Assembly (NCBI GenBank): GCA_001600815.1
Contig: BCKZ01000001.1
Coordinates: forward strand, 354,613-418,612
DNA length: 64,000 bases
Reading direction: 5' to 3'
Source: Alloascoidea hylecoeti
Taxonomy: Eukaryota
Shown: positions 22,638 to 59,689 of the stretch, one piece after another
How the letters are laid out: each line of letters begins with the position of its first letter
Numbering within the stretch: position 1 is the stretch's first letter
Program-made: the position numbers and the translations under genes
The notes under the pieces: model-generated
The model's database searches: none
What the model was told of the DNA's origin: nothing
Seen by the model: the letters and a program-made list of their open reading frames with translations, nothing else

Positions 22638-22679
<42 letters not shown>
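22638..22679. repeat. (AAT)14 microsatellite in the putative long U-rich 3' region of the PUF gene
   Basis: Perfect run counted directly. Confidence 0.95.
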
Positions 22680-22681
<2 letters not shown>

Positions 22682-27659: not shown

Positions 27660-29033
27660 TTATTCATCATCATCTAGATTCAAAGGAACATTAGTTCTAA
27701 GTAGATCAAATTTTATAAAAAAACTTCGAATCAATCCAATCAAATAATTAACCAATTTATTAAGGTATATAAATATAATTCCAACTCCAATGAAAGAACA
27801 CCAAACTCTTAAATCATCAAGTCTTAATAATTCTTCAATTGGAATATCAAACTTTTTCCCCTCATGACCATCTGTAACTGTATCAAATGTTCTATATTTA
27901 TTACTATTATTATCATTATTATTTTTGTTATTATTAATATTATTGTTATTATCAATGTTATTAGATTCATCATTTGTAGATAAATAAATATCAATCATTT
28001 CTAATCCAGGAATATAAATACCTAATGTATCTTGAATTAAAGGAAATATTCGTAATATTGATACAGAATATCCAATAAATCCAACAAGACAAGTACCTAA
28101 AGATAAATGTTGTCTCCAAGTTGGATTTTTAATGAAAACAATTGCATCATTATTATTTGTAATTGCCGCCCATTTAAATGATCTTGTTGAATATAAATCA
28201 ACAATTAAACTAAATATACTCCAAACACCTAATGGACCACCAGTTAAAAAATCAAATTGAAATCCTTTATATTCAACTCTACTTGTTGTAAAAGTATTAT
28301 GTTTGGAAGTTGTTGATGATAAAACTTTTTCTCTTTCTGTTTTCTTAATTTCATCATATAATCTTTTACCATTTTTATGAATTCCTAAAATTATATCTTT
28401 TCTAATTGATTCTGATAATTTTTTAAATCCAATTTTTGCAAGTATTAAATCTTGCCAATTTGCAATTAATAAAATATCATTTGGTTTAAAACCAAGTAAT
28501 AATGATCTTTGTGCATTATAACCCATTAATATACATAAAGTTATAATAATGATTGTTGTTATAATATAACTGAAAAATGATATTGGTATAATTGATAATA
28601 AATTAAATATATTTCGTTGTTCATATTTATATTTAAAACCACATAAATCACATTTATTATAGCTTTTTTTACCCACGTTTCGATTTCTCCACATTTGAAG
28701 ACAACGAACATGGACATATTTTGAACTTCCTTTACATAAACAAGGTGATATTAATGGACCTGAATATTCATCATCTGTATCATATTCATTTTCAACATAA
28801 ACACATTCTTCAGATTGTAAACAAATACGACATATCTTTTCAAGTTCATAAAGGTCTTCTTTTTCTTTTTTTTCTTCTTGTAAAGATAAACTATCAATAG
28901 AATCATTAAAAGATGACTTGAAAGTTCCTGTATATGACTCATGGAGTTCAACTCCAGATGATACTTCTAATACATCATCATCACCCCTTATTCCATTTGG
29001 TCCTTGATCTGCCAATGTAAACTCAAAATCCAT
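27660..29033 (-). CDS. RING-CH (RINGv/MARCH-type) membrane E3 ubiquitin ligase
   Basis: C4HC3 motif CRICL...LISPCLCKGSSKYVHVRCLQMW...CDLC followed by several hydrophobic segments and an Asn-rich loop. Confidence 0.88.
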   Translation of the reverse strand: MDFEFTLADQGPNGIRGDDDVLEVSSGVELHESYTGTFKSSFNDSIDSLSLQEEKKEKEDLYELEKICRICLQSEECVYVENEYDTDDEYSGPLISPCLCKGSSKYVHVRCLQMWRNRNVGKKSYNKCDLCGFKYKYEQRNIFNLLSIIPISFFSYIITTIIIITLCILMGYNAQRSLLLGFKPNDILLIANWQDLILAKIGFKKLSESIRKDIILGIHKNGKRLYDEIKKTEREKVLSSTTSKHNTFTTSRVEYKGFQFDFLTGGPLGVWSIFSLIVDLYSTRSFKWAAITNNNDAIVFIKNPTWRQHLSLGTCLVGFIGYSVSILRIFPLIQDTLGIYIPGLEMIDIYLSTNDESNNIDNNNNINNNKNNNDNNSNKYRTFDTVTDGHEGKKFDIPIEELLRLDDLRVWCSFIGVGIIFIYLNKLVNYLIGLIRSFFIKFDLLRTNVPLNLDDDE

Positions 29034-29188
29034 AATCTATTTTTAAAATTCAATAAATGAAATGAAAAGCAAAAAAACAAAAAAAAATTAGAGATAATAA
29101 TCCCTCGGAGTTTATCGTTGGTATATTGATAGCTCTGTTAGTAACAATACTGATAAACTTTATAAGTGAGGCGATATTGATTTCCAGT

Positions 29189-29197
29189 GTCACGTGA
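29189..29197. promoter_or_regulatory. Cbf1/bHLH E-box GTCACGTGA upstream of the RING-CH gene
   Basis: Exact RTCACGTG about 155 bp upstream of the ATG. Confidence 0.45.
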
Positions 29198-30529
29198 TTA
29201 GCACCAAAGATAACGACTTACAACGATTACAAATTTATCGATATCATGACCTTCATATTTTTGAAAACTGGAATTGGAACTGAAATGGTCTTCATTTAGG
29301 TTAAAATATTGATAAATTTGATCATTAGTTTCATATTATAATTATGTAATTGATATTTATTTACTTAACCGTTTATAATTTTAAATTATTTTATGAAATT
29401 GCAGTATGATGTTTTTTTTATTAATAATTATAAGTATATTTTTGATATCGTATCTTTATTTTTCTAATTCCACTTCAATCAAATATTTGTCTTAAATTTT
29501 TTACAAATAAAAAAAAGAAAGATCATTTCCTTTTACTTTTTTCTCATTATATTTTATTTGTTTCAAATAATAATTATTTATTTTAACTTCATATATATTC
29601 TTTAAATTCCATAAATAAAATGCTATGCATATTAAAAACATGTGAGTTATAACTTATAAAATGTAACGTTAACCACATCCCCACGGCCGTAAAATAAGTA
29701 TAAACCAATTGAAATCGAATCTTAAAGACTGTCTATGAGTAAACTTATAAGCATAAATCAACAATTAATATTTATAATTACTCGATCAAAATATAACTTA
29801 TAAAAAACGATACGTACGCCTTAAACTCAAATAATGACTAATTATCATAAAATTGAAAAGAAAAGTTAATTATTCATTATTAATTTTCATAGTTATACTT
29901 AAAACTCTTCGTAAAATTATATATGATTATGTCTACTTGAGTTTAACTTTCCATTGTGTTTCTTTCTTTGGAAACCATCTAATCCAATCAACAATTACTA
30001 TTTATAAATGTTTTTCGAGTCGATTAAACTAAATAGACATTGAGATTAATAAGAACTAACAATTGCAATGAATCTTAACGTAAAAGAAAAATAAAACTAT
30101 GCATATATTATCTTCAACTTTACTAAGTTAAAACATTAACTGAGCCAAGGCACATTTTGAACATTCACCAATATTTTTGTTTGCAATTGATCATTGGTAG
30201 TAGTATAAATCGTCATTTGTGAGAAAGCTTATTTCGTGTTTTCCAAATTTGCTTAGTCTTAACACCATAATCATTTTACTATTATGATAAAGAGTCTTCT
30301 ATTAATAAGTAAGGTACAGCCGTGAAAAACCTTAAGTTAAGCCTTTTCTTCAAATAAGAATGGCGGTGTCATAAACAGCTGCTGAGTAGCCTTTTAAGCC
30401 TTAAGCTGTTTTTAAAATACATAGTGCATAATGTTCCGTAAATATTAGAGATTATATTGATGCATATAGAATGACATTTTAAGTTTTAATATTTAGTGTT
30501 GACACCCTTAACCCTATAAACGGCTGTCA

Positions 30530-43562: not shown

Positions 43563-44666
43563 ATGACTACTATAATTGATTCACCAGTTATTATCGAACA
43601 TTTAGTTTCTAGACAAACTATCCACAGAACCATATCAGAAAATGATCTCGAGGTAACACCAATAACCGAATTCAAATCCCCAAAATTTGATCCAAAGAAA
43701 CATTTAAACTATAAGCCTGCTGATAAACAAGTATTGCTTTCAGAAATTGGAATCACTGATTCCTCACAAGGAATCTCACCCGTTGCTGTCACATCACCCT
43801 TCCCACTATTCACACCAGATGCTGTTGCAATCATGAGAGCCGAAATTTTGAATCCAAAACTAATTGAAAATTATGGAAAATTATCATGGAACGCAAATAA
43901 TTTAGTTGAAGACTATGAAAATTTACAATGCGTTTTGAGGGGTTATGCTAAAGATGCGGCACCTTTCACATATCAGGCTTGGACACATCCTCAAACCGTT
44001 GAAATTGTTTCAGAAATGGCTGGTGTTGAATTGCAAGTTGCCTTTGATTATGAGGTTGCACATGTTAATCTAGATATCAAAACAACTGAAAGCGAAGACG
44101 AGCGTGCGCTTAAAACCAAAGGAAAAGATGATATGCCTGCTTTAGTCGGATGGCATCGTGACTCGTATCCTTTCGTTTGTGTTTTAATGCTTAGTGACAC
44201 TACTAATATGACAGGTGGTGGAACATATATGCGGAAAGGAAATGGTGAAATTTCAATGGTTGAGGGACCAAAACAAGGACATGCCACTGTTTTACAAGGT
44301 AGAGTTGTTGAACATTTGGCTCCAAAGCCAACTCGTTATAAGGAAAGAATTACGATGGTTACTTCTTACAGACCAAAAGACATTGCAGTTAAAGATGAAA
44401 CGGTGTTGGGAACTGTAAGACCTGAAACAGACAAGTCTACTGATTTTAACACATTTTACCCACAATTCGTTGGATACAGATGTGACCTTATTTCTCAAAA
44501 TCTTAAAAAGTTACAACATACAATGATTTCAAGAATGGAAAAAGGTGAAGACTTCGTAAAGTCTGAAGCTATGTTGGAGTTGAAAAGAATGAGAGATTAT
44601 ATCAATTGGACCTTGAATGAAATGGTGGTTCCTGACCAAAAGGAACATTATGAAAATTATATTTGA
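43563..44666 (+). CDS. Fungal Fe(II)/2-oxoglutarate dioxygenase-family protein, substrate unknown
   Basis: HxD (WHRDSYPFVCVLMLSD), distal His (LQGRVVEHLA) and R.T..TS (ERITMVTSYRP). TATA-like TATATAAA near 43451. Confidence 0.8.
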   Translation: MTTIIDSPVIIEHLVSRQTIHRTISENDLEVTPITEFKSPKFDPKKHLNYKPADKQVLLSEIGITDSSQGISPVAVTSPFPLFTPDAVAIMRAEILNPKLIENYGKLSWNANNLVEDYENLQCVLRGYAKDAAPFTYQAWTHPQTVEIVSEMAGVELQVAFDYEVAHVNLDIKTTESEDERALKTKGKDDMPALVGWHRDSYPFVCVLMLSDTTNMTGGGTYMRKGNGEISMVEGPKQGHATVLQGRVVEHLAPKPTRYKERITMVTSYRPKDIAVKDETVLGTVRPETDKSTDFNTFYPQFVGYRCDLISQNLKKLQHTMISRMEKGEDFVKSEAMLELKRMRDYINWTLNEMVVPDQKEHYENYI

Positions 44667-45027
44667 AAATTTATATAGAAAAAACGGAAAGCTTAAGCTT
44701 ATAATAAGGTATCAATATGGGTTCTAGATTTTGAAATTCATTATGAGCCTGAGTTGCAATATAGTACATTGGATATTTTGATACTGTGGTTTGATTTTTA
44801 GGATGTGCAATTGTTTATGATGAAGTAGTTTAAATAGCATTAATTGAAATTAATGGAATTTATATGATTGTGTAATGAATCAATTCAATCAGATTATCAA
44901 TGATATCTTTATCCACGATCGGATCCCAGAATTTTGAAAAGACATAAGCATTATACTTTGAAATTTTAGACACATACATCTCTGATCGAAAATCATTTCA
45001 TCACTGAATGGAGAATAGTAACATCCT

Positions 45028-45567
45028 TTACATTATAATATCTCCATCTTTATCAGTATTTTCCTTGACTTCTTCATCCTTTCTAATTTCTGTGTCAGAA
45101 TTTAGCATTTCATCTAAAACTTTCAATTGTTGTTTCTTTTTGTATTCACCGACCCATACTGCCTTTCTATTAATGTTTATGGGTAGAAGTAGTGTTTCTT
45201 CACCTCCATTTCTTTGTTGTGCGTCCCCGCTTTGAGTATTGACTTTAACTCTACCTCCTATTGCTCCATCTAAAACACGAATTTCTCTTCTTAGCTTTAC
45301 ACCGACTTCTTCAACTGTTTCAAAAAATTGCTTGTTTGATTCTTGAAAGCTATTTCTTGCGCTTTGATGTCTCTGCATTTCATCTGGCATCACAGCATTT
45401 GCAGTCTTTTTAAGCTCAACAAGATGTGATAAAGAAGATGATACTGCTGATACTATTGTTGCAATTTTGGTGTCCAACTCATTTAAGTCAGCAAGGCGGG
45501 TTTCTATTTGAGGAACGGGTAGCGTAGGCACATCCTTCTGCGTATCAGCAGTAGATTGCGAAGCCAT
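45028..45567 (-). CDS. MED11: Mediator subunit 11
   Basis: Helical pattern IETRLADLNELDTKIATIV...FFETVEEVGVKLRREIRVLD. First ATG is MASQST at 45567. Neighbourhood matches S. cerevisiae YMR112C. Confidence 0.8.
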   Translation of the reverse strand: MASQSTADTQKDVPTLPVPQIETRLADLNELDTKIATIVSAVSSSLSHLVELKKTANAVMPDEMQRHQSARNSFQESNKQFFETVEEVGVKLRREIRVLDGAIGGRVKVNTQSGDAQQRNGGEETLLLPININRKAVWVGEYKKKQQLKVLDEMLNSDTEIRKDEEVKENTDKDGDIIM

Positions 45568-45632
45568 TGGAACTTTGCTTATGAAACACTTTGGATGTTT
45601 TGAATGTTCCAACAATACTCCCGGAATAGTTG

Positions 45633-45664
45633 AGCCCTAACCTTAGGGAAATAGAGCAGTCACA
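45633..45664 (+). promoter_or_regulatory. Ribosomal-protein promoter module: paired Tbf1-type sites (AGCCCTAA/TTAGGG) plus Homol-D box (CAGTCACA)
   Basis: AGCCCTAACCTTAGGG at 45633-45648 and CAGTCACA at 45657-45664, about 145-175 bp upstream of the ASC1 ATG. Confidence 0.65.
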
Positions 45665-45807
45665 CAATCGCCGGATCAAGAAAGTTCGGGTTTGGATATT
45701 ACGCGTGCATTCTGAGGTATACGCTGGTGATAGATTTCAACTCGAGGTTTTTGGATGTCATTTTATTCCTCACAGAACCGTTCCTTTGCAACAATAAAAT
45801 TAACAAT

Positions 45808-47254
45808 ATGAGCGACAGTGCTACTGAAATCTTGGTTCTTAGAGGTTCCCTTGAGGGTATGTTAATGATAAATAAACAACAATTGCTGCTTCATACTGAG
45901 GATGATTTTGGTTGGTAATAGAATCAACTAACATTTCTTTCCTTTAGGTCACAATGGGTAAATACAATATTTATTTATTTTTTCAAGTAATCATTGAGTG
46001 TAGGAAGATTTGGAAATTTATTCACGATAGTTTTTGGACCAATTTTTTTACAATAATCTTGTAGAAATCAATGGTTTTTTTCATTAAATATTTTCAAACT
46101 TACACCAATCATTTTACAAGAATCAACCGAATCAATAACATCAACTAACTTTTTAATTATAGTTGGGTCACATCCCTTGCTACATCCCCAACCCAACCCG
46201 ATATTCTTTTATCTGGATCCCGTGATAAATCTTTGATCATCTGGAACCTTACCAGAGATGAAGCCAACTATGGTGTCCCAAAGAAATCTTTACATGGTCA
46301 CTCACACATCGTTGAAGATGTTACCATTTCTGCCGATGGTGAATATGCTTTGTCTGCTTCTTGGGATAAGACTTTGCGTCTCTGGAATCTAAAGACCGGT
46401 GAGTGCACTAACAGATTTGTTGGACACACTGGTGATGTTTTGTCTGTTTCTATTGCTAGAAACTGTAGACAAATCGCCTCTGCTTCCCGTGATAAGACTG
46501 TCAAGGTCTGGAATACCATTGGTGAATGTAAATTCACTTTAACTGGTCACGAAGACTGGGTTTCAACTGTCAGATTCAAGCCACCAACAGACGAAAACGA
46601 GACAACTGCTGTTATCTCTGCTGGCTGGGACAAGGTCGTTAAGGTAAGTGAATTTTTTCCGATTTTATGAAATTTTTAATATGATGATTAGTTATTTGCT
46701 ACTTCAGATGCTGAATCACTATCAGTGCATGAGACAAACCATCACTACTTTTCCTGATTAAAAACTACCATTATTTTATCAAAATTTAAATTTTTATGGA
46801 AATTTTTCTAACAAATTAATTAATATAGGCCTGGGATCTTAATGACTGGAAATTAAAAGCCGACTATAAGGGTCACAACGGTTATGTTTCCACTATCACA
46901 ATCTCCCCCGATGGATCACTCTGTGCTTCAGGTGGTAAGGATGGTAGCATCATCCTTTGGGATTTGACATCTTCTCGTCATTTATACTCTTTGATTTCTG
47001 GTGATGAAGTCCACGCTTTGTCTTTCTCTCCAAACAGATACTGGCTCTGCGCTGCTACATCCTCTTCCATTAAGGTTTACAACTTACAACAAAGAGAATT
47101 GATTGATGAATTAAAACCAGACTTTGCTGCCAGCGGAACTAAATCAAGAGACCCAGAAGCTATTTCTTTAGCTTGGTCTGCTGATGGACAAAACTTATTT
47201 GCTGGTTATACCGATAATGTTATCCGTGTTTGGCAAGTTATGAGATCTAGTTAA
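45808..47254 (+). CDS. ASC1: RACK1/Asc1 40S ribosomal WD40 protein; exons 45808-45856, 45948-45957, 46163-46643, 46829-47254
   Basis: Spliced product reads [29 protein letters not shown]...[13 protein letters not shown]...[11 protein letters not shown]...[13 protein letters not shown]. All three introns have GT 5' sites, CTAAC branch points and TAG ends. Confidence 0.96.
46675..46764 (+). ncRNA. snR24: Box C/D snoRNA U24 (snR24-like) in ASC1 intron 3
   Basis: C box ATGATGA at 46681, guide TATTTGCTACTT before D' CAGA, C'-like ATGAGA, D box CTGA at 46754-46757, and terminal stem TTTTTAAT/ATTAAAAA. U24 is known to be hosted in ASC1/cpc2 introns. Confidence 0.88.
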
Positions 47255-47672
47255 ATCTCGAAAAAAAATTAGCTGAATGAGAAAGATGCTGCTGATATAT
47301 TCTAGAAACAAAACAAAGAATATACAAGTTTGGAGAGGGAAAGTCTTATACAAATAGTTTACACATTTTTTGGACTGAACTGTTTTCTTTCTTGTATTTT
47401 AGTATAGCTGCCCTCATGATTTTGTTCTATATTATTAATTGAAAATCATCCTACTTAATCTAGAGTAAATCTATCTGCATTATTATGATATCGATATTGG
47501 TCAGTGTAAACTAATGCATCCCTTCGTAATGACATCCCTCATATTGTAATCTCTCCCCATAAACTTTTTTGATAAGTATATTTTTAACATCTTTACACCC
47601 AATCCAAGGTTTGTATTTGATTCACTTCATCACTCTCGCCTCAGAATCGCTTTTTTTTAAATTTAGTGGGAA

Positions 47673-48893
47673 ATGGCCGGTGCATCTTCTCGTAAGAAGC
47701 TTCTACTCATGGTGAGCAGCGGATAATTAGCATTCGACAACTGTGGTATGTTACTAACACTAATGGATGTAGGGTAGGAGTGGTTCTGGAAAATCCTCAA
47801 TGAGGAGCATTATCTTTAGGTAAATTGAAAATGTTTATCTAACAGCTGTCAGCTAAAATCATTAACGTGTTATTTAATAGCAATTACTCAGCATTCGATA
47901 CAAGAAGGCTCGGCGCCACTATTGATGTAGAGCACTCACATCTGCGGTTTCTTGGTAATATGACTTTGAACCTGTGGGATTGTGGTGGGTATGTTAGAAA
48001 ATTAATAATTCACAAACGGCTAATTGTATTTTCTAATATTATTTTCTAATAATAGACAAGATGCATTTATGGATAACTACTTTACTACACAAAGAGACCA
48101 TATCTTTAGAATGGTTCAGGTTCTAATTCATGTTTTTGACGTTGAATCCAAAGAAGTTATCAAAGATATAGAAACGTTTACGCGAGGGTTGAGACAGTTA
48201 AAGGAATTTTCACCAAAAGCTAAAATATTCGTCTTATTACATAAAATAGATTTGGTTCAAGTTGACAAAAGAGAGGAGCTTTTTTCAATAATGATGAGAA
48301 AGTTAGAAGAAAGCGCGGGACAATTTGGATTTGCAATAACTGGTTTTGCTACATCAATATGGGATGAAAGCTTATACAAAGCATGGTCACAGATTGTATG
48401 CTCTTTAATTCCAAATATGAGTTTATTCGAAAAGAATCTCCAAAATTTCGCATCTATTAGTGAAGCACAGGAAGTGATTTTATTTGAGAAAACTACATTT
48501 CTGGTTATTTCACATGTTTCCAACAATGTAGAAGATGGTGACGCTCAGTTAATCGAGGCTAATGGTAGAAATGGATTGATCCCCACACATGCTAATATAA
48601 ATAACTCTCTGAGTAATCTAGATCCCAAAAGGTTTGAAAAGATATCCAATATAATTAAAACTTACAAACAGAGTTGTAGCAAAATGAGAGCTCAATTTCA
48701 AACCTTTGTTCTTCATGGATCATCTTGCTCCATATATATTGATGTATTCACCCCAAACATGTATGTTATGGTTGTTTTACCCAATAACACAAATGGGGAT
48801 AGTGCGGATGAAGAGAATTTGGTTCTGACCAATATTCGTGTTGCTAAAAAATTGTTTGAAAGAATTGAGTGTTGTTATTTCAATTTTAATTAA
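47673..48893 (+). CDS. GTR1: Rag A/B GTPase Gtr1; exons 47673-47711, 47773-47819, 47881-47988, 48056-48893
   Basis: Spliced product reads [64 protein letters not shown]...HKIDL...[13 protein letters not shown]. The extreme C-terminus is uncertain (possible further intron). Confidence 0.95.
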
Positions 48894-49814
48894 CTTATTT
48901 CATGCTTACATATCCGATATGCAGTGCAGATCAATCATCAAATGATCTACATATGTTTCAGATTTATATTAAACTACATGCCTTGCATATTAGATATGCA
49001 GGGGTTACGTGGTCATTCATATACTACAGCAAGCCCCTTAATATTATTGCCACCTCCTTATTATTATTTAGCCTATATAGTTACATATATAAGACAGTTA
49101 AATCCATTGGATTTAACTCTCTACTTTTTCTTATTCCTATTTAATATACTATTTACTTTATCTTTTTTACTCTATCAGTTTTACCGATTAATATTGAGTC
49201 AAATCGATAAATGTCAACCATTCTTATATTACTTTAAATTTGTTGTCTTATACGTATATATATATCTGTCAATATCAACTAATATAATTTTTGGATCATG
49301 ATCGTGATACTTATAATTACAATTTTAATCGATATAAGTATCTATGCATTATATTAAATTCTAAAGCGGGAATTTTGAAAGCACTCTAAAACATGTCAAA
49401 CGTCAAACGTCAAACTAACTATGAAACCTCTTTCGTTAAACAGCACTATATGCATACGACAGGCTTCTCTTCGTGATCTTTGATTGTTTTAGGATTGATC
49501 CCCTCTATATTTAGACCAATACTTTGAGGTTTCATAAAACACATGCTTGTTGGATGCTTATTTATGCATTGATATATTGATATATTCCTTATTAGTTCGT
49601 ATTATAATTAATAGTTCAGATGTCAATTGCAAATTATTAACAAAGCCTTGATAGTCTATCGGTAGAGTTGTCAGAGAATTATGAAAAGAGATAAAAATAA
49701 TCATTTTTCAATCAATTAATAACTTTAACTTTTCAATTTTATCATTATCGATATCATTTTATAGTTTTCTTTCTTGTTGGTTAACTTATAGCTTTTTATC
49801 TTATAAAAATTCTA

Positions 49815-51509
49815 ATGGAACTTGAAAGTCTTAATGTTTCTGAGATAGAAAAAGTTTTAGGAAATATTGAAGATCATGAAGTTAAATATTATACAGTGGG
49901 TATTATGAAAACAGTGACCGTGTCCGAAGGAACATTACCGGCCGCGGGTGTTGCATGTCAAACAACTCATATTAATCTCAAGAATCCAAATATAAACTTA
50001 ATATCTAGGGACATTATAACCACTACTACAGCAGCGGCTGTTTCTTCCTCAACATCAAGCACATCTTCCAGTAGCCCACAGCTACTGTACCTATTGTTTC
50101 TTGTTCCAATGATGATAGTTGGGGTTGGATTAATATATATCTTAAGAATGCACCTGAAAAGCACCAAAAGGAATGTAATTAAGAGTGAAGAAGTTATGTC
50201 GTCTCGCAGTCACACAGATGATGAGGAAATATGTGATGGTCCTGGTTATAAATCGATTGTTAATGCCTTGAATGAAAGACTACCTTCCTATAAGCCATCA
50301 TCATTTCCTGGAACTTCGAAAATATTGTCTCGTTCTATGGCGTCTTTAAAAAGGGGACATGGAACAGGCGAAGTTCAAAATAATGATTCTCAATTTACCA
50401 GGTTTCGTCAGTCTCTTTCTTTGAATAGATATTCTGACATATTTCATTCAGTTAATTTTCTACCGTCTATTAAGACCCAATTTAGGTCTCGTTCTACTCC
50501 AAGTAATTCTGATACAATAAGACTACCAACTTATCAACATGTTTTAGCTGACAATAAAGCAGGGAGTATTGCTTCATCTAGATCAGAAAGTCTTATAGTT
50601 GAATTTCCTAAACCAGTTGCTCTTCCAAAACGGTTTTATTCACTCTCACATAAAGACCCAAGAAAGGCATCAAATAAGAGACTACTATCTTCTGCACCTA
50701 TTAAATATAATCCACTTAAGCTTGGGCCAGAACAAAATTATAAAGCAGGTACTATACCTATTGAAAGTACATCCTTGACAGATAATACTAATGTTCCAAA
50801 ACACAATATTAATACTGTCTCTAATAACATCAGGTCTCACTCACGAAGTATTACTCTAACAATAGGACTTGATCTTAGTCAAGAAAATATTACAACAGAT
50901 TCCAACTGTCAGGAAGGAAGTGATCTACAAAATAGAACATCGAAAAATAATGATTATATTACAATTTTAGCTCGAAAAGATAGAGCTTCACCAAAATGGG
51001 TTAGACATGCACCTCCAGCACCCCCTCATACATATACAGTATATCCCATGTCTGCCTCTCTACCTATTCCTTCAGTTTCAGAAGTCAAAGGTCAACATGT
51101 AAATAAAAAACAAGATCGAAATCAAACAAAAATGATTCAAGCAAGTCCTCTGAGAATCGCTCCCAAAAACAAAAACTTAATCAAAAAACCTCATCCATGT
51201 TTAGTTATTTCACCACCTCCATATAGCCAGAATATCAGGAACATACCTTCAATTAACGTTGAAATTGCAAACTCAAATTATAATGTTCGTACTAATGAAG
51301 CAAGTTCCAATGATGAACGAGTTACAAGCAATCTCAGCAACTCAAGCTACTTTTCTATTGGGTATCATTCCCCCAGCGAAAGAATATCTCAATGTTTAAC
51401 ACCACAATCTGCATTAAGTTTTGATAATAATAGGCCTAGTGTATTTTTAGGTAGGCTTTATGAATCATATAATCGGAAATCGGCAAATCCTCCTTCTACT
51501 TATATCTAA
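49815..51509 (+). CDS. Orphan single-pass membrane protein with S/T-rich ectodomain and long disordered cytoplasmic tail
   Basis: 564-aa intact ORF with a T/S tract, then TM LLYLLFLVPMMIVGVGLIYIL followed by basic residues. LPSY, LPTY and PPPY motifs lie in the tail. Confidence 0.7.
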   Translation: MELESLNVSEIEKVLGNIEDHEVKYYTVGIMKTVTVSEGTLPAAGVACQTTHINLKNPNINLISRDIITTTTAAAVSSSTSSTSSSSPQLLYLLFLVPMMIVGVGLIYILRMHLKSTKRNVIKSEEVMSSRSHTDDEEICDGPGYKSIVNALNERLPSYKPSSFPGTSKILSRSMASLKRGHGTGEVQNNDSQFTRFRQSLSLNRYSDIFHSVNFLPSIKTQFRSRSTPSNSDTIRLPTYQHVLADNKAGSIASSRSESLIVEFPKPVALPKRFYSLSHKDPRKASNKRLLSSAPIKYNPLKLGPEQNYKAGTIPIESTSLTDNTNVPKHNINTVSNNIRSHSRSITLTIGLDLSQENITTDSNCQEGSDLQNRTSKNNDYITILARKDRASPKWVRHAPPAPPHTYTVYPMSASLPIPSVSEVKGQHVNKKQDRNQTKMIQASPLRIAPKNKNLIKKPHPCLVISPPPYSQNIRNIPSINVEIANSNYNVRTNEASSNDERVTSNLSNSSYFSIGYHSPSERISQCLTPQSALSFDNNRPSVFLGRLYESYNRKSANPPSTYI

Positions 51510-53276
51510 TTTTTATTGATTAATTTTTCCAACTACTGCTTCAAATTCGCATATTAAAATTTCTAGATCTAATGACATCTATCATTATTTGTGATTTTCT
51601 AATTCTTATATATAAAATTTATTTTATTAATACATTTCGGAAGTTTAAACTAAAGGGTTTAGGTGATTATTTAGTGTTCGTGTTTCTGATTTTTTTACAA
51701 CTTGATTAATATTATACCAAGGATATGCTAATTTCATGGCCAATTCAACAACTACTATAGCTATAGCTATGGTTAAATTCTTAATTATAAGTTTACGCGC
51801 ATCTATAACTTACACAAGATATATAAAGCTCAAATTAATGTAATGAGAAGTTACGACAGACATTAAAATAGTAAATATATTTGCAATAATTATCTTCTAA
51901 ATTTAAAGCGTTTATCGTAATACTTATTGTTCTTTTACATTTTCAATAAAACCAAAATTTCCATCAGCATTCAAATTCTCTTGTAGTCAAGTCCCTCTCT
52001 AATGGTTAGCCTTTTCATGGTAGAGTTTGTACCCTATTAACAAATTGTATAACTACAATGGCAATATCAGTAGAATAAAAGTATTTATGATTGTAACAAA
52101 TGAAACATAATCTGACTGAGGTTTCCCCCATTTCAAATAGATAACTTAATATAAAAATAGATAGACTTTCCTTTAATATAAACTATCTTATTTTCTCATC
52201 TTTATCTATTATCTTAGATGCATAATTAACGTCTTTATGTATATTTGCATACACTCTATTGATCGTTGCTGATTCGTTAGACACAATTGCAAGGTTAACA
52301 ATCCAGTAGCTATAACAATATAACTATTAACTACTAAAATAAAAGAATTTAATTGTAATATAAGTACTAAACACCCGTACTATTTAGACAGTGAAATTTC
52401 CCAAAAAATCACTATAATCGTGATTAGTTAATCAGTATAATTTAAAGCCGCTTGTAATTAGCTCAAACATGGAGAGATTATGACCAAAAAACTTTAGCTG
52501 AACAAACACTATTATCATCATAATTAAAATATTATTCTGTTTAATAACAACTCGCAATTGGTTGTCAATGCAACTTCAAATATTACTCTTGGGTGTTTAT
52601 GGCGGCATTTATATTGTTATGAGAAATAAGAGAGAACAGAAGTCACCAGAAACATATGCACTTTTTTTCATTTTTATATAACTTGTATCTTGGAAATTTA
52701 TCGAAAAAGAGGAAAATCTAAGTATAACTGACCATCAAGTATGAAATTATAATTAAAGAAACCAAACCTCAGAGGCCTCGACTCAATATAAGTATTCTAC
52801 GGCTATCTGAAGTAATGCTGTAGTAAGTTATCAAAAGATTTTACAGTAATTCTCTTAATTGTAAATAATGTTTCATATTTTTTATTATACCGTTAGCATC
52901 ATACACCGGTACCATATACATACAATTAAGGATAGTGTCTTATGAGAGCTTTGTAGGCTTCTGAAAATGTTTAGACTGATATATCTGTTAATTACAGTAT
53001 ATATTTAATGGTTCCGAAAAATAAGAGAAACCCTTAATTATAATGATTTAACTATACAAGTATACCAAGATATGACAATTTACAAGTTATAATGGATTAG
53101 TAGATAATTATTTTTATTAAAGTCGTATACTACTATACATAACATTAATATACATTAAAATTATGAATGTATATATATTCTCAAAGAAAATATCTTTAAG
53201 ATCCTATTCAAATATTGGAGTGGTATTATCTGGTGAATGTTTTTTTGAATTATTAACAGTTAAGGTATCTTTTCTT

Positions 53277-54191
53277 TTATATTTTAGATTTACGCTCTTT
53301 ACGATTTTTAAAATGATAAATAAGTGATGCTGGACTAGTACTGGCATCGCAATATTCGTATGCTTTTTGTTTGTTGGTATCACTAGGGCTCAAAAATGGC
53401 CATGGAGTTGATTCAAATAATCGTTGTAATTCATCAGTTCTAACAATATCAACAATTCTTTTAGTATATTTTAATACTCTTAAAGAATATTGATATCCTT
53501 GCTGATGATACTTCGAGGCTAAACAATTATGGAAAGCTGAAGCTAAACAATAGAAGTTCGATACCAATGAATAATATTGAGCCAACTGAATACCGTTCAC
53601 TGATTTATCAAATTTTCTTCTAACAAAAGTATATGTTTTACCATTAACCTCCACTGTTAACGTTTTATATATTTCGTCATTTGTACTGGTTAGCTGTTGG
53701 AAATACTTATTAATATATTCCAACGTTTCAAAGGCATAATCCTTGTATTTAGTATAATCACGATTAGTTATCAACGTCGATGTCAATACATCATGATAGC
53801 CTTTAAACAATGATGTTGTATTATGACTATGCTTATCTTTTCTAGACATTGAGGACTGATATGGATACATAAATTCAATAAATTCATTGAAATGTTTTTG
53901 GAATTCATCTTGAACGTTTAAAATATCAGAGAAAGTATCTTTACAGTTTTGTGTCGTCTTTATATTCTGTTTCATTCTACTATATTTATATCTATGGGAA
54001 TTTTCAGCACCAATAGCCATTGCTGAAATTGGAACAGGTTCATTATATATTTGTTGAGGAGGCAAATAATGACCATTTTTTCCTTGACTGCAGTTTGAAT
54101 TCGTTTTGGAAGATTTTAAAGATGGAATGAAGTCAAAGATATCTAGAATCATGGTGGTAAGATTCTTTTCTTGAGTTAAAACGGTAGACAT
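53277..54191 (-). CDS. Orphan 304-aa protein, left palindrome copy (Leu157)
   Basis: Intact ORF with ATG context CACCATGT. Weak KilA-N/APSES-like segment VEVNGKTYTFVRRKFDKSVNGIQL and a basic C-terminus. Confidence 0.75.
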   Translation of the reverse strand: MSTVLTQEKNLTTMILDIFDFIPSLKSSKTNSNCSQGKNGHYLPPQQIYNEPVPISAMAIGAENSHRYKYSRMKQNIKTTQNCKDTFSDILNVQDEFQKHFNEFIEFMYPYQSSMSRKDKHSHNTTSLFKGYHDVLTSTLITNRDYTKYKDYAFETLEYINKYFQQLTSTNDEIYKTLTVEVNGKTYTFVRRKFDKSVNGIQLAQYYSLVSNFYCLASAFHNCLASKYHQQGYQYSLRVLKYTKRIVDIVRTDELQRLFESTPWPFLSPSDTNKQKAYEYCDASTSPASLIYHFKNRKERKSKI

Positions 54192-54552
54192 GGTGAAAAT
54201 TTAGTTAGAGACAAATATAATTGTTAAGTGAAACGGATAGAAGTGGAGAAAAAAGAACAGAAACAAAAATTTTCTTCATAAATACCCCCATAGGTGTACT
54301 TTCTCTTACCATATGCATATGTATTATAATTAGGTTTAGAATGTGGCAGCTGCAGCTGCAGTTGCCGCTTTCAGTATCTTTCTTCGAATGTTCCATCGTA
54401 CCTCCAATATCCCTAGATTGATCTGTACCCTATATTAAAGGAAAGTACACCTATGGGGGTATTTATGAAGAAAATTTTTGTTTCTGTTCTTTTTTCTCCA
54501 CTTCTATCCGTCTCACTTAACAATTATATTTGTCTCTAACTAAATTTTCACC

Positions 54553-55467
54553 ATGTCTACCGTTTTAACTCAAGAAAAGAATCTTACCACCATGATTCTA
54601 GATATCTTTGACTTCATTCCATCTTTAAAATCTTCCAAAACGAATTCAAACTGCAGTCAAGGAAAAAATGGTCATTATTTGCCTCCTCAACAAATATATA
54701 ATGAACCTGTTCCAATTTCAGCAATGGCTATTGGTGCTGAAAATTCCCATAGATATAAATATAGTAGAATGAAACAGAATATAAAGACGACACAAAACTG
54801 TAAAGATACTTTCTCTGATATTTTAAACGTTCAAGATGAATTCCAAAAACATTTCAATGAATTTATTGAATTTATGTATCCATATCAGTCCTCAATGTCT
54901 AGAAAAGATAAGCATAGTCATAATACAACATCATTGTTTAAAGGCTATCATGATGTATTGACATCGACGTTGATAACTAATCGTGATTATACTAAATACA
55001 AGGATTATGCCTTTGAAACGTCGGAATATATTAATAAGTATTTCCAACAGCTAACCAGTACAAATGACGAAATATATAAAACGTTAACAGTGGAGGTTAA
55101 TGGTAAAACATATACTTTTGTTAGAAGAAAATTTGATAAATCAGTGAACGGTATTCAGTTGGCTCAATATTATTCATTGGTATCGAACTTCTATTGTTTA
55201 GCTTCAGCTTTCCATAATTGTTTAGCCTCGAAGTATCATCAGCAAGGATATCAATATTCTTTAAGAGTATTAAAATATACTAAAAGAATTGTTGATATTG
55301 TTAGAACTGATGAATTACAACGATTATTTGAATCAACTCCATGGCCATTTTTGAGCCCTAGTGATACCAACAAACAAAAAGCATACGAATATTGCGATGC
55401 CAGTACTAGTCCAGCATCACTTATTTATCATTTTAAAAATCGTAAAGAGCGTAAATCTAAAATATAA
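54553..55467 (+). CDS. Orphan 304-aa protein, right palindrome copy (Ser157)
   Basis: ATGTCTACCGTTTTA reads directly on + at 54553 and ends TAA at 55467, so the '-' label in the supplied track is wrong. Identical to the left copy except TTG/TCG at codon 157 (55021). Confidence 0.75.
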   Translation: MSTVLTQEKNLTTMILDIFDFIPSLKSSKTNSNCSQGKNGHYLPPQQIYNEPVPISAMAIGAENSHRYKYSRMKQNIKTTQNCKDTFSDILNVQDEFQKHFNEFIEFMYPYQSSMSRKDKHSHNTTSLFKGYHDVLTSTLITNRDYTKYKDYAFETSEYINKYFQQLTSTNDEIYKTLTVEVNGKTYTFVRRKFDKSVNGIQLAQYYSLVSNFYCLASAFHNCLASKYHQQGYQYSLRVLKYTKRIVDIVRTDELQRLFESTPWPFLSPSDTNKQKAYEYCDASTSPASLIYHFKNRKERKSKI

Positions 55468-56479
55468 AAGAAAAGATACCTTAACTGTTAATAATTCAAA
55501 AAAACATTCACCAGATAATACCACTCCAATATTTGAATAGGATCTTAAAGATATTTTCTTTGAGAATATATATACATTCATAATTTTAATGTATATTAAT
55601 GTTATGTATAGTAGTATACGACTTTAATAAAAATAATTATCTACTAATCCATTATAACTTGTAAATTGTCATACCTTGGTATACTTGTATATTTAAATCA
55701 TTATAAGGGTTTCTCTTATTTTTCGGAACCATTAAATATATACTGTAATTAACAGATATATCAGTCTAAACATTTTCAACTGTGTAATAGAAGCCTACAA
55801 AACTCTCATAAGACATTATCCTTATGAATAGCACCAAAAACTTAAAATGATTAAATGCATGTGGATATGTTTCAATGAAAATATTTCCCGCTATAAAACT
55901 ACGTAGCTATAGATAATATTTGAAATAAAATTATATGTTGACAGCCAGTTGAGAGATTTTAATTATGATCATACACACATGTGTATATCAATAACTTCCC
56001 TAGTATAAAATCTAATAGGATAGAAATAGTTAAGTTACTTATAGTATTGGGCCTATGTTCCCCATTTATAGTGGGAATCATCCAATATCCATTACAAGAC
56101 GGAAGATGTATTAAAAAGTTGAATGAAAGCATGCAATCCATGAAGAGGCACCGGTTAATCGAGTTTAAAGAACAACACCAATAATAATGGTAGAGGTTTA
56201 GAGATTTCTGTTTCTTCCCAACTTCAAGGTATTTCCAGTTAACTATGGAATTAGTATGGATAGAAATTCTTAATGCATGAAACTTTTGTTTGACTGTTAC
56301 TCTTCTTCGAATGGTACATGCAATTGGCTCAGTTTATTAAGAAAAAATTGGCAGAAAGTGCACTGCAAAATATAGGTGAGGTTAAGGAAGTATAAAGATC
56401 CTCGAGTATATTTAAAAGCGGTACTATACTTATAACTAAAATATATAATATATCATTGCAAACTGTCATAAATAGCCAC

Positions 56480-58015
56480 CTATTTTTTCAAGAAATAGTA
56501 TGTCAAATAGAGAAGAACAAGAACTAATTGCCATTTTCGAAAAAACCAATTCTTAGTAACTCTTCCCTTTCTGCCAAACCAAGCAGTTGGAACTGTTCCA
56601 AGACTAAGTAATTTTAAATTCTTTTCAGTAAAAGGTGGATATCTAAATTTTAACATAAGTTCAGCCCAAAATGGTTGTTTTAAAATAGGATATGCATGAG
56701 AAAATTGATCAAAAGAATAACGTCCATGATATGCTCCATTACCAGATTCTCCTACACCACCAAATGGCAATTGACTGATTCCGACATGAATTATAACATC
56801 GTTCATAAATAGGGCTCCGGTTCTAATATGTGATTCAATTTTCTTAACATCTGGAGATGATGAGTTTGATGTGAATATATAAGTAGCAAGAGGAGTATCG
56901 TGTTTTGAAATAACATTATGAATAGCTTCATCAATATCATCATAAGGAATGATAGGTAAAATGGGACCAAATAATTCCTCTTGCATGGTTGAATCTTCAA
57001 ATGAAGCATTATTGATAATTGTTGGTTTAATATAATTTGATTCAGGATCGGAATCTTTTAAACCGCCGAAGACAATATCACCTTTTGTATTTTCAATGAC
57101 CGTAGAAATTCTCTTAAAAGCAGCAGAATTAATTAAATGTGTATAATCAGATGTTGAAGCTGTTAAATTAGGATACATGCTTTCAGTTACTTTAATGATT
57201 TCATCAACTAATTTGGCTTGTAATGATTTATGAACATAAACGTAATCAACAGCAACACATGTTTGCCCACCATTTGTAAATTTTCCCCATGCTATACGAT
57301 TAGCAACAGTAGTTAAATTCTTGGTATTCTCAACAACAAAAGCTGGCGATTTACCACCTAATTCAAGAAGAGTCGGTGTTAAATGTTTGGCAGCAGCAGC
57401 AGATATGATTCTTGCTACTTTACCACCACCAGTATACATGATTTTATCAAATTTTTGTTCCAATACGGCAGTTGTTTCTTGAACTCCACCTAAAACGTAA
57501 TCAAAGACATTTGGAATATCAATTGCCTCTGACATCAATTTAGAAAATAATTTCGAAAATTCGGGAACTTGTTCAGAAGGTTTAAAAAGAACCGAATTAC
57601 CCGCTGCAATGGCACCAATAATTGGACTAGCAGATAATACCAAAGGATAATTGAAAGGTGATATAATCAAAACAACACCTAATGGTTTCTTGGAAATATA
57701 TGGATTTGTTGCTTTAAATGCTAAATCAATACCTGAAGCAGCTACTGGTTTGGCCCACTTTTTAAGATTCTTAATCACATCAATGATCTCACCTAAACAG
57801 ATATTCACCTCCAAAGCAAGTGTTTCTGACGGGGACCTGAAAAAGTCATGGTATAATGCATCTTGAAATTGTTTGGAGTTATCTTTGATAGCATAATATA
57901 TATTCCTAAGGAGGTGAAGTCGAGTATCAATATCGAGGATGGTTTGGTTCAAATAGGTTCCCCGCAGAGCAGAAACCTTCTCTGGGATATCAGATATTGG
58001 AGTAAAATCAGACAT
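56480..58015 (-). CDS. HFD1: Fatty aldehyde dehydrogenase (ALDH3 family)
   Basis: Motifs PFNYP, KPSE, LELGGKSP, GQTCVA, EELFGP and PFGGVGESG, with a C-terminal membrane anchor. Confidence 0.92.
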   Translation of the reverse strand: MSDFTPISDIPEKVSALRGTYLNQTILDIDTRLHLLRNIYYAIKDNSKQFQDALYHDFFRSPSETLALEVNICLGEIIDVIKNLKKWAKPVAASGIDLAFKATNPYISKKPLGVVLIISPFNYPLVLSASPIIGAIAAGNSVLFKPSEQVPEFSKLFSKLMSEAIDIPNVFDYVLGGVQETTAVLEQKFDKIMYTGGGKVARIISAAAAKHLTPTLLELGGKSPAFVVENTKNLTTVANRIAWGKFTNGGQTCVAVDYVYVHKSLQAKLVDEIIKVTESMYPNLTASTSDYTHLINSAAFKRISTVIENTKGDIVFGGLKDSDPESNYIKPTIINNASFEDSTMQEELFGPILPIIPYDDIDEAIHNVISKHDTPLATYIFTSNSSSPDVKKIESHIRTGALFMNDVIIHVGISQLPFGGVGESGNGAYHGRYSFDQFSHAYPILKQPFWAELMLKFRYPPFTEKNLKLLSLGTVPTAWFGRKGRVTKNWFFRKWQLVLVLLYLTYYFLKK

Positions 58016-58191
58016 ACTTTTTTTATAATAGTGGCTTTTTTACGTGTAAACAGGAGATATAAGTATTTATAAATAAAAATCGTTGGGTTGCTCTTTAAAT
58101 TGACTTAAATTCGAGAAGCTTGTGAAAGAGCTAGTCTACTCTTCTTCATTTAATTTCTCCACATTTGCTAATAAACAAATCGAGAACCTTA

Positions 58192-59457
58192 TCACATGCA
58201 CGATCGGAGCAACAAAGAAGCCAAATAAAGAGACCCACACACCACAGCATTATCCTCGTTCACACAGGAGAAGACGGCAGACAATGGATTGTGATCCACA
58301 GACACATTGGGCGTGAAAGGTTTCATCTGCTCAGCTACTGCCTCGGGTCTTTGGGGTCTAATCCACGGCATCCCGTCAATGTCACCAAATTGGGTAACCG
58401 TTACCCGGTCTTCGGTCGTCAACAGTGGGGGTAGAATGGATCCTAAATCCTTACCCTGTGTAAATGCCATGACATAATGAACGCCTTTTCCGTTGGCTCT
58501 TATGTTCTCATCTACATACTTGCCCAGTTCAATGGCAGCGGATCCATTGTGTGCCCCATCTAGCAAGAATGTGACTTTTTTACCGTCTCTTTCCAAGGTA
58601 AGATGCTGTAGTCTACCTTCCCAGACAACACTCCTGATTCCCTGTAATACTGACTCACGACTCACTTTGCTGAGCGCCGATGGGAAGTACTTGTGAACAG
58701 ACTCTAATGCAGTTAAAGCACAGGATAAATTGCTTGCTTGAAATGATCCTGGTAAAGGTGTGGAATCAAGTGAAATGGAACCGAACCTCGTCTCAAGGAT
58801 ATCTTCTCTCTTTAACGAAGGTGAAGTTATAGTGATAGGTGCTTCCATTTGATTGGCCCGTCTTGTAATTGTATCCAGTACCCCAGCGTTATTCGATCCA
58901 TCGACTACAATCGGTATCTTATACTTAATTATTCCTGCTTTATGGGTTGCAATTTCTGGTAATGTAGATCCTAAAAATCCTTCATGGTCCAATCCAATCT
59001 TTGATATAACGCTACAAATGACACCTCCTTTATCTGTATCCTTAGCACCAGTTAAAATATTAGTACTATCAAGTAGACCACCCAAACCACATTCCACAAT
59101 TGCAATTTCAACATTTTGTTCTTGAAAAACACCAAACGCAATTGCAGTCATTACTTCAAATTCACTTGCTCCAATCTTAAACTCTTTATTAATTCCATTT
59201 ACTTTATCTTCCCATTTCAGGAAAACATCTTCATCAATCGATTTGTTGTTTATTGCTATTGAATCCCACCTATAACGTAGATATGGGGATGTAAAACGAC
59301 CAGTTGGGATTAAAGAAGTTGATAAGATCGAGGATAAATACGAAACGATACTACCTTTACCATTTGTACCCGATACATGTATTGTACGAAAGGTAAGTGG
59401 AAGGTGTAATAACTGAAGAAGCTTGTCAATTCTTGCAAGACCAGGAATAATTGGCAT
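58192..59457 (-). CDS. FOL3: Dihydrofolate synthetase / folylpolyglutamate synthase family
   Basis: Motifs IHVSGTNGKGS, FTSPYL, ECGLGGLLDSTN, HKAGIIK, DGAHN and CGSLYL; syntenic with HFD1. Confidence 0.9.
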   Translation of the reverse strand: MPIIPGLARIDKLLQLLHLPLTFRTIHVSGTNGKGSIVSYLSSILSTSLIPTGRFTSPYLRYRWDSIAINNKSIDEDVFLKWEDKVNGINKEFKIGASEFEVMTAIAFGVFQEQNVEIAIVECGLGGLLDSTNILTGAKDTDKGGVICSVISKIGLDHEGFLGSTLPEIATHKAGIIKYKIPIVVDGSNNAGVLDTITRRANQMEAPITITSPSLKREDILETRFGSISLDSTPLPGSFQASNLSCALTALESVHKYFPSALSKVSRESVLQGIRSVVWEGRLQHLTLERDGKKVTFLLDGAHNGSAAIELGKYVDENIRANGKGVHYVMAFTQGKDLGSILPPLLTTEDRVTVTQFGDIDGMPWIRPQRPEAVAEQMKPFTPNVSVDHNPLSAVFSCVNEDNAVVCGSLYLASLLLRSCM

Positions 59458-59689
59458 TTGATAAAAATTACTAAGTTTTATTAATTGAAAAGTTTTAGGT
59501 TTACACGATGTTGATGATGGGAGGTTAGCTATAAACTCAAATATAGCCTATAATTATAACATAGCTATAAATTATAAGGTCTTAGCTATAGCTGGAAAAT
59601 TTTCTCACTTAACATGATATTTATAGAGATCTATATCTGATACCCTATATGTGTGTTATGATTGTTATTTTTCTGTCAAACGTAAGGGA

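What the first reader, a model, noticed from the sequence alone, without database searches (positions are those of the whole stretch)
52927..55824. Gene-bearing ~2.9 kb palindrome: two intact divergent copies of an orphan gene around a 137-bp asymmetric spacer
Seen: the arms (1377 and 1384 bp) are near-perfect reverse complements, each with a full 304-aa ORF plus 5' and 3' flanks, pointing outward from a shared 361-bp inter-ATG region. I found only about 2 substitutions across the inner ~1.2 kb. The outermost ~170 bp has about 4 substitutions plus 11-bp and 4-bp indels. Known: long inverted repeats with short spacers are unstable in yeasts, and inverted repeats underlie flip/flop mating-type switching in methylotrophic yeasts. 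Inference: the divergence gradient suggests an older duplication kept homogeneous by arm-to-arm gene conversion. This could be a maintained system such as a dosage palindrome, a selfish element, or an invertible promoter cassette, sitting within an otherwise conserved ASC1-HFD1-FOL3 neighbourhood.
Basis: partly seen in the sequence, partly recalled or inferred. Interest (0 to 1): 0.85.

Follow-up and report, generated by a model that had tools for sequence, protein, structure and literature searches.

The report
Mirror-image twin orphan genes in yeast
A budding yeast really carries two almost identical, back-to-back copies of a gene of unknown function in a 2.9-kb DNA palindrome, most likely a local duplication kept alike by copying between its arms, which is a known process in a tight form and not a genetic switch.

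Summary
Observation confirmed: arms 52927-54303 and 54441-55824, 137-bp spacer, two intact 304-aa ORFs (L157 or S157), 6 substitutions and 2 indels. It is not an assembly artefact: contigs of 4 of 4 public runs (3 studies) fork from the arm into both flanks, and in 3 of 4 one spacer contig joins the arm at both ends. The gradient is real: 6 of 8 differences lie in the outer 151 bp (p 0.004-0.05 on neutral sites) and no hidden inner variants appeared. Best reading: a local inverted duplication homogenised from the centre outward by conversion or template switching, giving two doses from one shared promoter region. A functional flip, a transposon and a centromere are poorly supported. The protein has no detectable relative; an APSES/KilA-N-like stretch (aa 166-204) is a weak lead chosen after the fact. 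No sister species or RNA data were available, so age and expression are untested. This scan noted the same layout at other loci of this genome (unchecked notes); that genome-wide pattern is more interesting than this locus.

The parts
52927..54303 (-). Left arm of the inverted repeat (1377 bp)
53277..54191 (-). Left copy of the 304-aa ORF, Leu at codon 157; this allele is not in the 15-billion-protein collection
52927..53070 (.). Frayed outer zone of the left arm: 4 substitutions, the 4-bp extra and the site of the 11-bp gap
   Evidence: the fork at the 11-bp indel is seen in 4 of 4 runs
54304..54440 (.). Unique 137-bp spacer, 39% GC; with 112 bp of each arm it forms the 361-bp shared upstream region
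   Evidence: one 197-bp contig joins the arm at both ends in runs X2, X3, X4
54339..54372 (.). 34-bp GC-rich imperfect palindrome in the spacer (14 of 17 pairs, 59% GC), centred 16 bp left of the spacer centre; candidate two-way regulator site or relic hairpin
   Evidence: 1 of 15 centres in the window scoring 9.5 or more, the other 14 being A/T-only or (TA)n runs
54441..55824 (+). Right arm of the inverted repeat (1384 bp)
54553..55467 (+). Right copy of the 304-aa ORF (P0001), Ser at codon 157; soluble, basic (pI 9.2), basic C-terminal tail, host-like codon use
55048..55164 (+). Codons 166-204: ungapped weak resemblance to the first half of StuA/Efg1-type APSES (KilA-N) domains; a lead only
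55674..55824 (.). Frayed outer zone of the right arm (151 bp) with 6 of the 8 arm differences
49815..51509 (+). Left neighbour: 564-aa ORF with one hydrophobic stretch and no significant Pfam family
56480..58015 (-). Right neighbour: fatty aldehyde dehydrogenase (HFD1-like)

Best explanation
A lineage-specific, probably nuclear protein gene was duplicated locally in inverted, head-to-head orientation together with 112 bp of upstream and 357 bp of downstream DNA. Shown: the structure, two intact frames, the gradient of differences. Inferred: (1) it arose by a fold-back or replication template switch that left a 137-nt loop, followed by a second switch back to the chromosome; (2) since then one arm has been overwritten by the other, by gene conversion or template switching that starts near the centre and fades about 1.2 kb out, so the outer 150 bp keep older differences; (3) both copies are transcribed outward from the shared 361-bp region, with the 34-bp symmetric element as a possible two-way activator site, giving roughly double dose; (4) the spacer is long enough to keep the repeat tolerably stable; (5) the spacer may flip now and then as a by-product, without a switch-like output. 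For the protein my best guess is a fast-evolving DNA-binding regulator (APSES-like first half, about 15% likely).
For: Topology in 4 of 4 runs: arm contig of 1338-1342 bp, fork at 55778 into the right flank and into letters matching the left flank; spacer contig joined to the arm at both ends in 3 of 4. Arm contig depth is 1.6-2.1 times the right flank's (the tool warns depth is not a copy number). Gradient: KS p 0.001 for all 8 events, 0.028 for 6 substitutions; on non-coding plus synonymous sites only, scan-corrected p 0.0044 (7 events) and 0.044 (5 substitutions). The outer rate predicts about 13 substitutions at inner neutral sites; 1 is seen (Fisher p 0.012, boundary chosen after the fact). 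Every arm variant shown by the runs (5 places) is a left-arm allele of the window; the left allele appeared in 7 of 12 bubble choices, so hidden inner differences would mostly have shown. ORF beyond chance (0 of 2000 shuffles) with CAI 0.66 inside the host range 0.49-0.82. Precedents: C. elegans hsp16 modules, inverted 1.9-kb repeat 416 bp apart (PMC3966223, passages); Drosophila Hsp70 pairs (PMC3924832, section 10); template switching homogenises arms and inverts spacers of short repeats in S. cerevisiae (PMC8604942, abstract).
Against: Only 8 events; on substitutions alone the gradient is marginal (p 0.03-0.05). The standard proofs of conversion (paralogues closer than orthologues of a sister species; shared polymorphisms) could not be run. 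No decayed homology continues beyond the outer ends (149 of 200 shuffles score as well; anchored tests 429, 427, 321, 103 of 500) or convincingly into the spacer (24 of 500 for 20 bp; 245, 184, 316 of 500 for longer), so nothing independent shows an older, larger repeat. The only coding difference is non-synonymous, so there is no sign of purifying selection between copies. Arm non-coding DNA is not GC-enriched (0.235 against 0.27-0.31 in flanks). Expression is unknown. The published fold-back models yield triplications or whole-arm duplications (PMC10766186, PMC10622511, passages); a local duplication with unique flanks needs an extra step.
Confidence: 0.6

Rival explanations
1. A single recent inverted duplication of little consequence. 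The outer cluster of differences was made at once, by error-prone synthesis near the junction (a recalled property of microhomology-mediated repair), and no conversion has occurred.
For: Sharp ends with no decayed homology beyond; inner 1233 bp differ at only 2 sites; all samples nearly identical; unchecked notes describe many young and decayed inverted duplications in this genome. Opposite-orientation gene pairs make up 19.0% of 469 tandem arrays in nine yeasts (PMC2822764, passages).
Against: Six separate events of three types over 151 bp (2.6% substitutions) is dense for one repair event, and they affect both arms (an extra 4 bp left, an extra 11 bp right).
Confidence: 0.2
2. A selfish or foreign element (fold-back transposon, virus- or plasmid-derived cassette, or drive gene) inserted as a palindromic unit.
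For: Orphan ORF with GC1 of 0.34, below the 0.35-0.54 of the 16 other ORFs measured; abrupt ends; a TA at both ends could be a target duplication.
Against: The only non-adapter loose end in the three single-organism runs is the left flank, so no third near-identical copy shows (1 loose end and 6 pieces not displayed). No longer target duplication. No match in Pfam, PHROGs, NCBIfam, viral contigs, phages or plasmids. Codon use is host-like.
Confidence: 0.07
3. An invertible promoter cassette: recombination between the arms flips the spacer and changes which allele (L157 or S157) gets the stronger promoter half.
For: The spacer is asymmetric and the alleles differ at one residue in a predicted helix. 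Cores between 2-kb repeats do invert in Komagataella isolates (PMC5010909, abstract).
Against: After a flip each spacer end still faces one near-identical ORF, so the output hardly changes (inference). No MAT-type or recombinase family among the window proteins scanned. No joint was listed, though such contigs cannot phase the spacer.
Confidence: 0.05
4. An inverted-repeat centromere of the Komagataella type.
For: Arms of kilobase size and 98.5% identity; unchecked notes propose such centromeres elsewhere in this genome.
Against: The core is 137 bp, not about 1 kb (PMC5010909, abstract); intact ORFs fill two thirds of each arm; the AT-rich, gene-poor trough of this window lies at 17-30 kb, not here.
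Confidence: 0.04
5. Assembly or library fold-back artefact.
For: No long reads were available; contig graphs alone also allow other walks. Proteins of this region sit on contigs of 34,309, 1,627 and 5,096 bases in the collection, as if another assembly broke here.
Against: Same fork, spacer and alleles in runs of three studies; arms differ at 8 fixed places; about double depth.
Confidence: 0.02

Closest known systems
C. elegans hsp16-1/hsp16-48 inverted repeat (as described in PMC3966223, passages)
   Same: Kilobase gene-bearing arms, short unique spacer, diverged flanks, identity attributed to gene conversion.
   Different: There each arm holds two known stress genes and the spacer is 416 bp; here one orphan gene per arm, a 137-bp spacer and frayed outer ends.
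Drosophila Hsp70Aa/Ab and Ba/Bb palindromic pairs (PMC3924832, section 10)
   Same: Mirror-image paralogues in which breaks are repaired from the other arm.
   Different: Conversion there is proven by cross-species comparison and shared polymorphism; here only a within-genome gradient supports it.
Opposite-orientation tandem gene arrays of yeasts (PMC2822764, passages)
   Same: Two adjacent paralogues on opposite strands; 19.0% of 469 arrays in nine yeasts.
   Different: Those were defined by protein similarity; the passages read give no case of near-identical DNA arms including flanks with so short a spacer.
Macro-palindromes of Saccharomycopsis schoenii (PMC13148404, passages and first part of section 22; Supplementary Table 7 not read)
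   Same: A budding yeast genome reported to hold numerous inverted repeats with arms over 100 bp, some carrying mirrored genes.
   Different: The described cases have kilobase spacers and surround MAT cassettes; no MAT or SLA2 gene was found here.
Flip/flop mating-type locus of Ogataea polymorpha (PMC5720833, passages)
   Same: An identical kilobase inverted repeat that can recombine.
   Different: It inverts 19 kb with MATa and MATalpha at opposite ends next to a centromere; here the invertible part is 137 bp of non-coding DNA.
APSES/KilA-N transcription factors (StuA/Efg1 group, Pfam PF04383)
   Same: 13 of 38 identical residues without gaps over the first half of the domain; predicted hairpin then helix at the same place.
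   Different: No Pfam match, no support from the second half of the domain, hhalign probability 0.7%.

Membership tests
Palindromic gene pair under concerted evolution (hsp16, Hsp70 type) | Adjacent intact paralogues in inverted orientation with near-identical arms and unrelated flanks | tested here: met
Palindromic gene pair under concerted evolution (hsp16, Hsp70 type) | Identity not uniform: more alike inside than a single age allows | tested here: met
   p 0.004 with indels, 0.044 on substitutions alone
Palindromic gene pair under concerted evolution (hsp16, Hsp70 type) | Paralogues closer to each other than to orthologues in a sister species | not testable with these tools
   no relative of the ORF found; no eukaryote genomes held
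Palindromic gene pair under concerted evolution (hsp16, Hsp70 type) | Polymorphisms shared between arms across strains | tested here: inconclusive
   runs X3 and X4 show only the window's own alleles, in mixed order that contig building alone can produce
Flip/flop mating-type locus | Invertible region carries different MAT genes at its two ends | tested here: not met
   137-bp non-coding spacer; both arms carry the same gene
Flip/flop mating-type locus | Homeodomain or HMG/alpha-box MAT proteins | tested here: inconclusive
   no such Pfam family for the whole protein or 7 fragments (filters drop weak matches); C-terminal model pLDDT 49.5, best Z 3.2
Flip/flop mating-type locus | Both orientations occur and one end is silenced | not testable with these tools
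   needs long reads and RNA
Komagataella-type inverted-repeat centromere | About 2-kb arms around a core of about 1 kb | tested here: not met
   1.38-kb arms, 137-bp core (PMC5010909 abstract)
Komagataella-type inverted-repeat centromere | CenH3 binding over the core | not testable with these tools
   needs ChIP
Fold-back or TIR transposon | Dispersed near-identical copies | tested here: not met
   only two outer junctions and about double depth; diverged copies would not be seen
Fold-back or TIR transposon | Target-site duplication | tested here: inconclusive
   only a TA dinucleotide is compatible
Fold-back or TIR transposon | Transposase domain | tested here: not met
   no family
APSES/KilA-N proteins | Pfam KilA-N match | tested here: not met
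   absent, whereas control domains score 37.6-44.9 bits
APSES/KilA-N proteins | First half of the domain (hairpin and first helix) | tested here: inconclusive
   pair E 0.001; 6.2 bits, reached by 1 of 5000 and 0 of 5000 shuffles; family picked by eye beforehand
APSES/KilA-N proteins | Second half of the domain (recognition helix, wing, last helices) | tested here: not met
   shuffling it scores as well in 1326 of 2000 trials against a StuA/Efg1-only profile
APSES/KilA-N proteins | Winged-helix fold | tested here: inconclusive
   model pLDDT 33.6; best Z 7.6 (rmsd 2.3, 63 aligned) to generic helical hairpins

The most novel reading that the evidence does not exclude
This yeast lineage uses short-spacer, head-to-head palindromes as a regular way of amplifying and preserving genes (this orphan, and by unchecked notes a metallothionein, two zinc-finger genes and another orphan), because hairpin processing or centre-initiated arm repair works differently in it; the gene here would be a highly diverged APSES-like regulator whose dose is set by a symmetric two-way promoter, possibly binding the 34-bp element itself.
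Probability: 0.15. Interest if true: 0.65.

Novelty: new member of a known kind. Interest (0 to 1): 0.33.

Why it matters
As a single locus it is a clean natural example of a gene palindrome with a polar homogenisation gradient in a budding yeast, useful for measuring conversion tracts but not a new kind of system. If the recurrence across this genome holds up, it would be a natural model for how cells tolerate kilobase palindromes that laboratory yeast destabilises, and short-read assemblies that collapse such repeats may hide the class in other yeasts.

Tried and rejected
Homologue searches for P0001 found only itself: word search (1 of 681 candidates, lengths 167-532 aa only), full phmmer of 1.84 billion representatives, PDB, PHROGs (2 families at E 0.09-0.12), NCBIfam, metagenome and viral contigs, plasmids and phages, earlier findings by sequence. 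Atlas searches gave scores under 0.9, partly ADP-ribosyltransferase clusters with fewer than 100 shared features; rejected as noise. Two single-sequence models were unusable (pLDDT 33.6 and 49.5) and three fold searches gave nothing specific. Homeodomain at the C-terminus, seen by eye from recalled family features: no Pfam or PDB support. Bromodomain ZA-loop likeness (aa 261-290, best E 0.081): the ORF ends before the rest of the domain and the downstream frames hold no continuation. Alpha-box and positional EUC1 ideas (recalled) found no support and were dropped. Attempts to widen the APSES profile to other subfamilies failed, so the test rests on StuA/Efg1-type domains. The 34-bp palindrome as the centre of the original fold-back: the DNA on its two sides is unrelated (1393 of 2000 shuffles score as well). 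No Rfam match in 44-64 kb and no tRNA. The bacterial promoter scan is not applicable. No RNA holder listed, which says nothing on expression. CUG reassignment is irrelevant: the ORF has no CTG. Literature searches listed no paper describing near-identical short-spacer head-to-head gene palindromes as a class in budding yeasts, apart from the S. schoenii macro-palindromes; the library omits most subscription papers.
Full report
1. Observation. The alignment of the two arms gives left arm 52927-54303, right arm 54441-55824 and a 137-bp spacer, with 6 substitutions and two indels (4 bp only left, 11 bp only right); 1367 of 1388 columns match. Each arm holds a 304-aa ORF pointing outward (53277-54191 minus, 54553-55467 plus), 361 bp apart at the ATGs, differing only at residue 157. 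The frame is far longer than chance (307 codons; 0 of 2000 shuffles above 151) and its codon use lies in the range of the 16 other ORFs measured.

2. Is it real DNA? No whole genome is held. Four of ten listed runs hold 92-96% of the sampled words; they come from three studies, and X1/X2 may be the source of the assembly. I laid all four on 54315-59500, that is most of the spacer, the right arm and the right flank. In 4 of 4 runs one contig of 1338-1342 bases covers the arm and ends at 55778, where the graph forks into the right flank and into letters that match the left arm's last 35 bp. In X2, X3 and X4 a single 197-base contig covers the spacer and overlaps the inner arm end on both strands; in X1 it is split in two. 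Arm depth is 2.14, 1.85, 2.10 and 1.56 times the right flank's; the tool cautions that depth is not a copy number, so I rely on the topology. These contigs cannot phase the spacer with the flanks. The runs are almost identical in the flank (one difference, at 56036 in X4), so they show the structure is real but cannot date it. Six pieces and one loose end were not displayed.

3. The gradient. Six of eight differences lie in the outer 151 bp. Against uniform placement KS p is 0.001 (8 events) or 0.028 (6 substitutions). Counting only non-coding and synonymous sites, so that selection on the protein cannot explain it, the scan-corrected p is 0.0044 (7 events) or 0.044 (5 substitutions). A worry was that an assembler had copied one consensus into both arm interiors. 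The runs argue against it: all five variant places they show in the arm are the window's own left-arm alleles, the left allele was picked in 7 of 12 bubble choices, and about 13 of 14 hidden sites would have surfaced if choices are independent. Against an old repeat: no homology continues past the outer ends or clearly into the spacer, and arm non-coding DNA is not GC-enriched.

4. The spacer. It holds a 34-bp imperfect palindrome at 54339-54372 (59% GC), the only one of 15 equally scoring centres in the window that is not an A/T-only or (TA)n run. It is off-centre by 16 bp and its two sides are unrelated (1393 of 2000 shuffles), so it is more likely a symmetric regulatory site than the seed of the duplication; this is inference. 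No RNA family or tRNA was found.

5. The protein. It has no detectable relative. That is less striking than it sounds, since the neighbouring aldehyde dehydrogenase has no relative above 52% identity among the 120 listed: the host is an isolated lineage. The protein is soluble, basic and ends in a basic tail. By eye, from recalled family features, residues 166-204 resemble the start of an APSES domain. To test this I collected fungal APSES domains with a recalled short motif (116 matches in 115 loci, 31 long enough, 15 aligned after dropping intron-broken and near-duplicate rows by eye) and confirmed them as KilA-N and Mbp1 relatives. P0001 aligns without gaps over 38 residues, 13 identical (E 0.001 for the pair); the HMM score of 6.2 bits is reached by 1 of 5000 and 0 of 5000 shuffles. 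But hhalign gives 0.7%, Pfam gives nothing, a whole-domain alignment is reached by 10 of 2000 shuffles and 2 of 256 unrelated windows, and the second half adds nothing (1326 of 2000). As the family was chosen by eye from many, this is a lead of perhaps 15%. A bromodomain-loop likeness is of similar weakness. Models and fold searches were uninformative.

6. How it most likely works. A fold-back or template switch duplicated the gene in inverted orientation and left a 137-nt loop. Such junctions at short interrupted repeats are described for yeast (PMC10766186 and PMC10622511, passages; the latter reports more inverted duplications without Sae2 or Mre11 nuclease), although a local duplication with unique flanks needs a second step. 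Later repair copied one arm onto the other from the centre outward, sparing the outer ends. A spacer of this size damps instability 20- to 300-fold in S. cerevisiae assays (PMC10164571, passages). The result is two doses of one protein from a shared upstream region. Structure and gradient are shown; origin, conversion, expression and dosage benefit are inferred. I give this 0.6, a recent one-off with junction errors 0.2, a selfish element 0.07, a functional flip 0.05, a centromere 0.04, an artefact 0.02.

7. Comparison. It works like the hsp16 and Hsp70 palindromic pairs (PMC3966223 passages; PMC3924832 section 10), though the cross-species proof of conversion is missing. It is not a flip/flop MAT locus (PMC5720833 passages) or a Komagataella-type centromere (PMC5010909 abstract) by the features testable here. 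Opposite gene pairs are common in yeasts (PMC2822764 passages), and one yeast genome paper reports numerous macro-palindromes (PMC13148404, passages and part 1 of 2 of section 22; its Supplementary Table 7, not read, may list closer cases).

8. Context from this scan. Unchecked notes on other pieces of the same genome describe head-to-head palindromes of a metallothionein and of two zinc-finger genes, a palindrome with an orphan gene facing inward, and many retroelement or decayed fold-backs. I could not test them. They make this locus look like one case of a genome-wide tendency, which lowers its uniqueness and raises the value of a whole-genome census.

9. Verdict. Real, accurately described, a new member of a known kind; interest 0.33. 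The bolder reading, a lineage that routinely amplifies genes as tight palindromes, has probability about 0.15 and would deserve about 0.65.

Noticed in passing
window 17000-30000: AT-rich, gene-poor trough (20-27% GC except one kilobase); nearby genes have very low GC3 (RING-variant gene 0.09, GDA1-like 0.10, NAD kinase 0.14). Candidate centromere-type trough (PMC2997560, search listing only).
   Followed up: partly
window 24001-25000: GC spike (48%) over the 5' part and upstream of a PUF gene whose 3' part is about 21% GC; an unchecked note describes a similar spike elsewhere in this genome.
   Followed up: no
window 54431-54446 and 52165-52180: An exact 16-mer spanning the right inner junction recurs inverted 750 bp left of the palindrome; 4 of 15 control slices also share a 16-mer with the rest of the window, so chance is plausible.
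   Followed up: partly
window 49815-51509: 564-aa Ser-rich ORF with one hydrophobic stretch, no significant Pfam family and no exact record in the protein collection; a second unexplained gene beside the palindrome.
   Followed up: partly
window 43563-59457: Proteins left of, inside and right of the palindrome are recorded on contigs of 34,309, 1,627 and 5,096 bases, and only the S157 allele is on record, as expected if another assembly collapsed the repeat.
   Followed up: no
window 54315-54470: Spacer contig depth is only 0.43 of the flank's in metagenome run X3 (0.84-0.91 in X2 and X4), possibly hairpin-related loss in library preparation.
   Followed up: no
window 56036: Run X4 shows T>C in a 508-base contig at about half depth, a possible heterozygous site.
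   Followed up: no
window 55248-55298 and 53446-53496: A weak 52-bp self-complementary stretch (77%) inside the ORF of each arm.
   Followed up: no
window 39085-59457: MGR3-like, SRAP, Med11, WD40 (ASC1-like), HFD1-like and FOL3-like genes recall the S. cerevisiae YMR110-YMR116 block in rearranged order (names and synteny recalled; families).
   Followed up: partly
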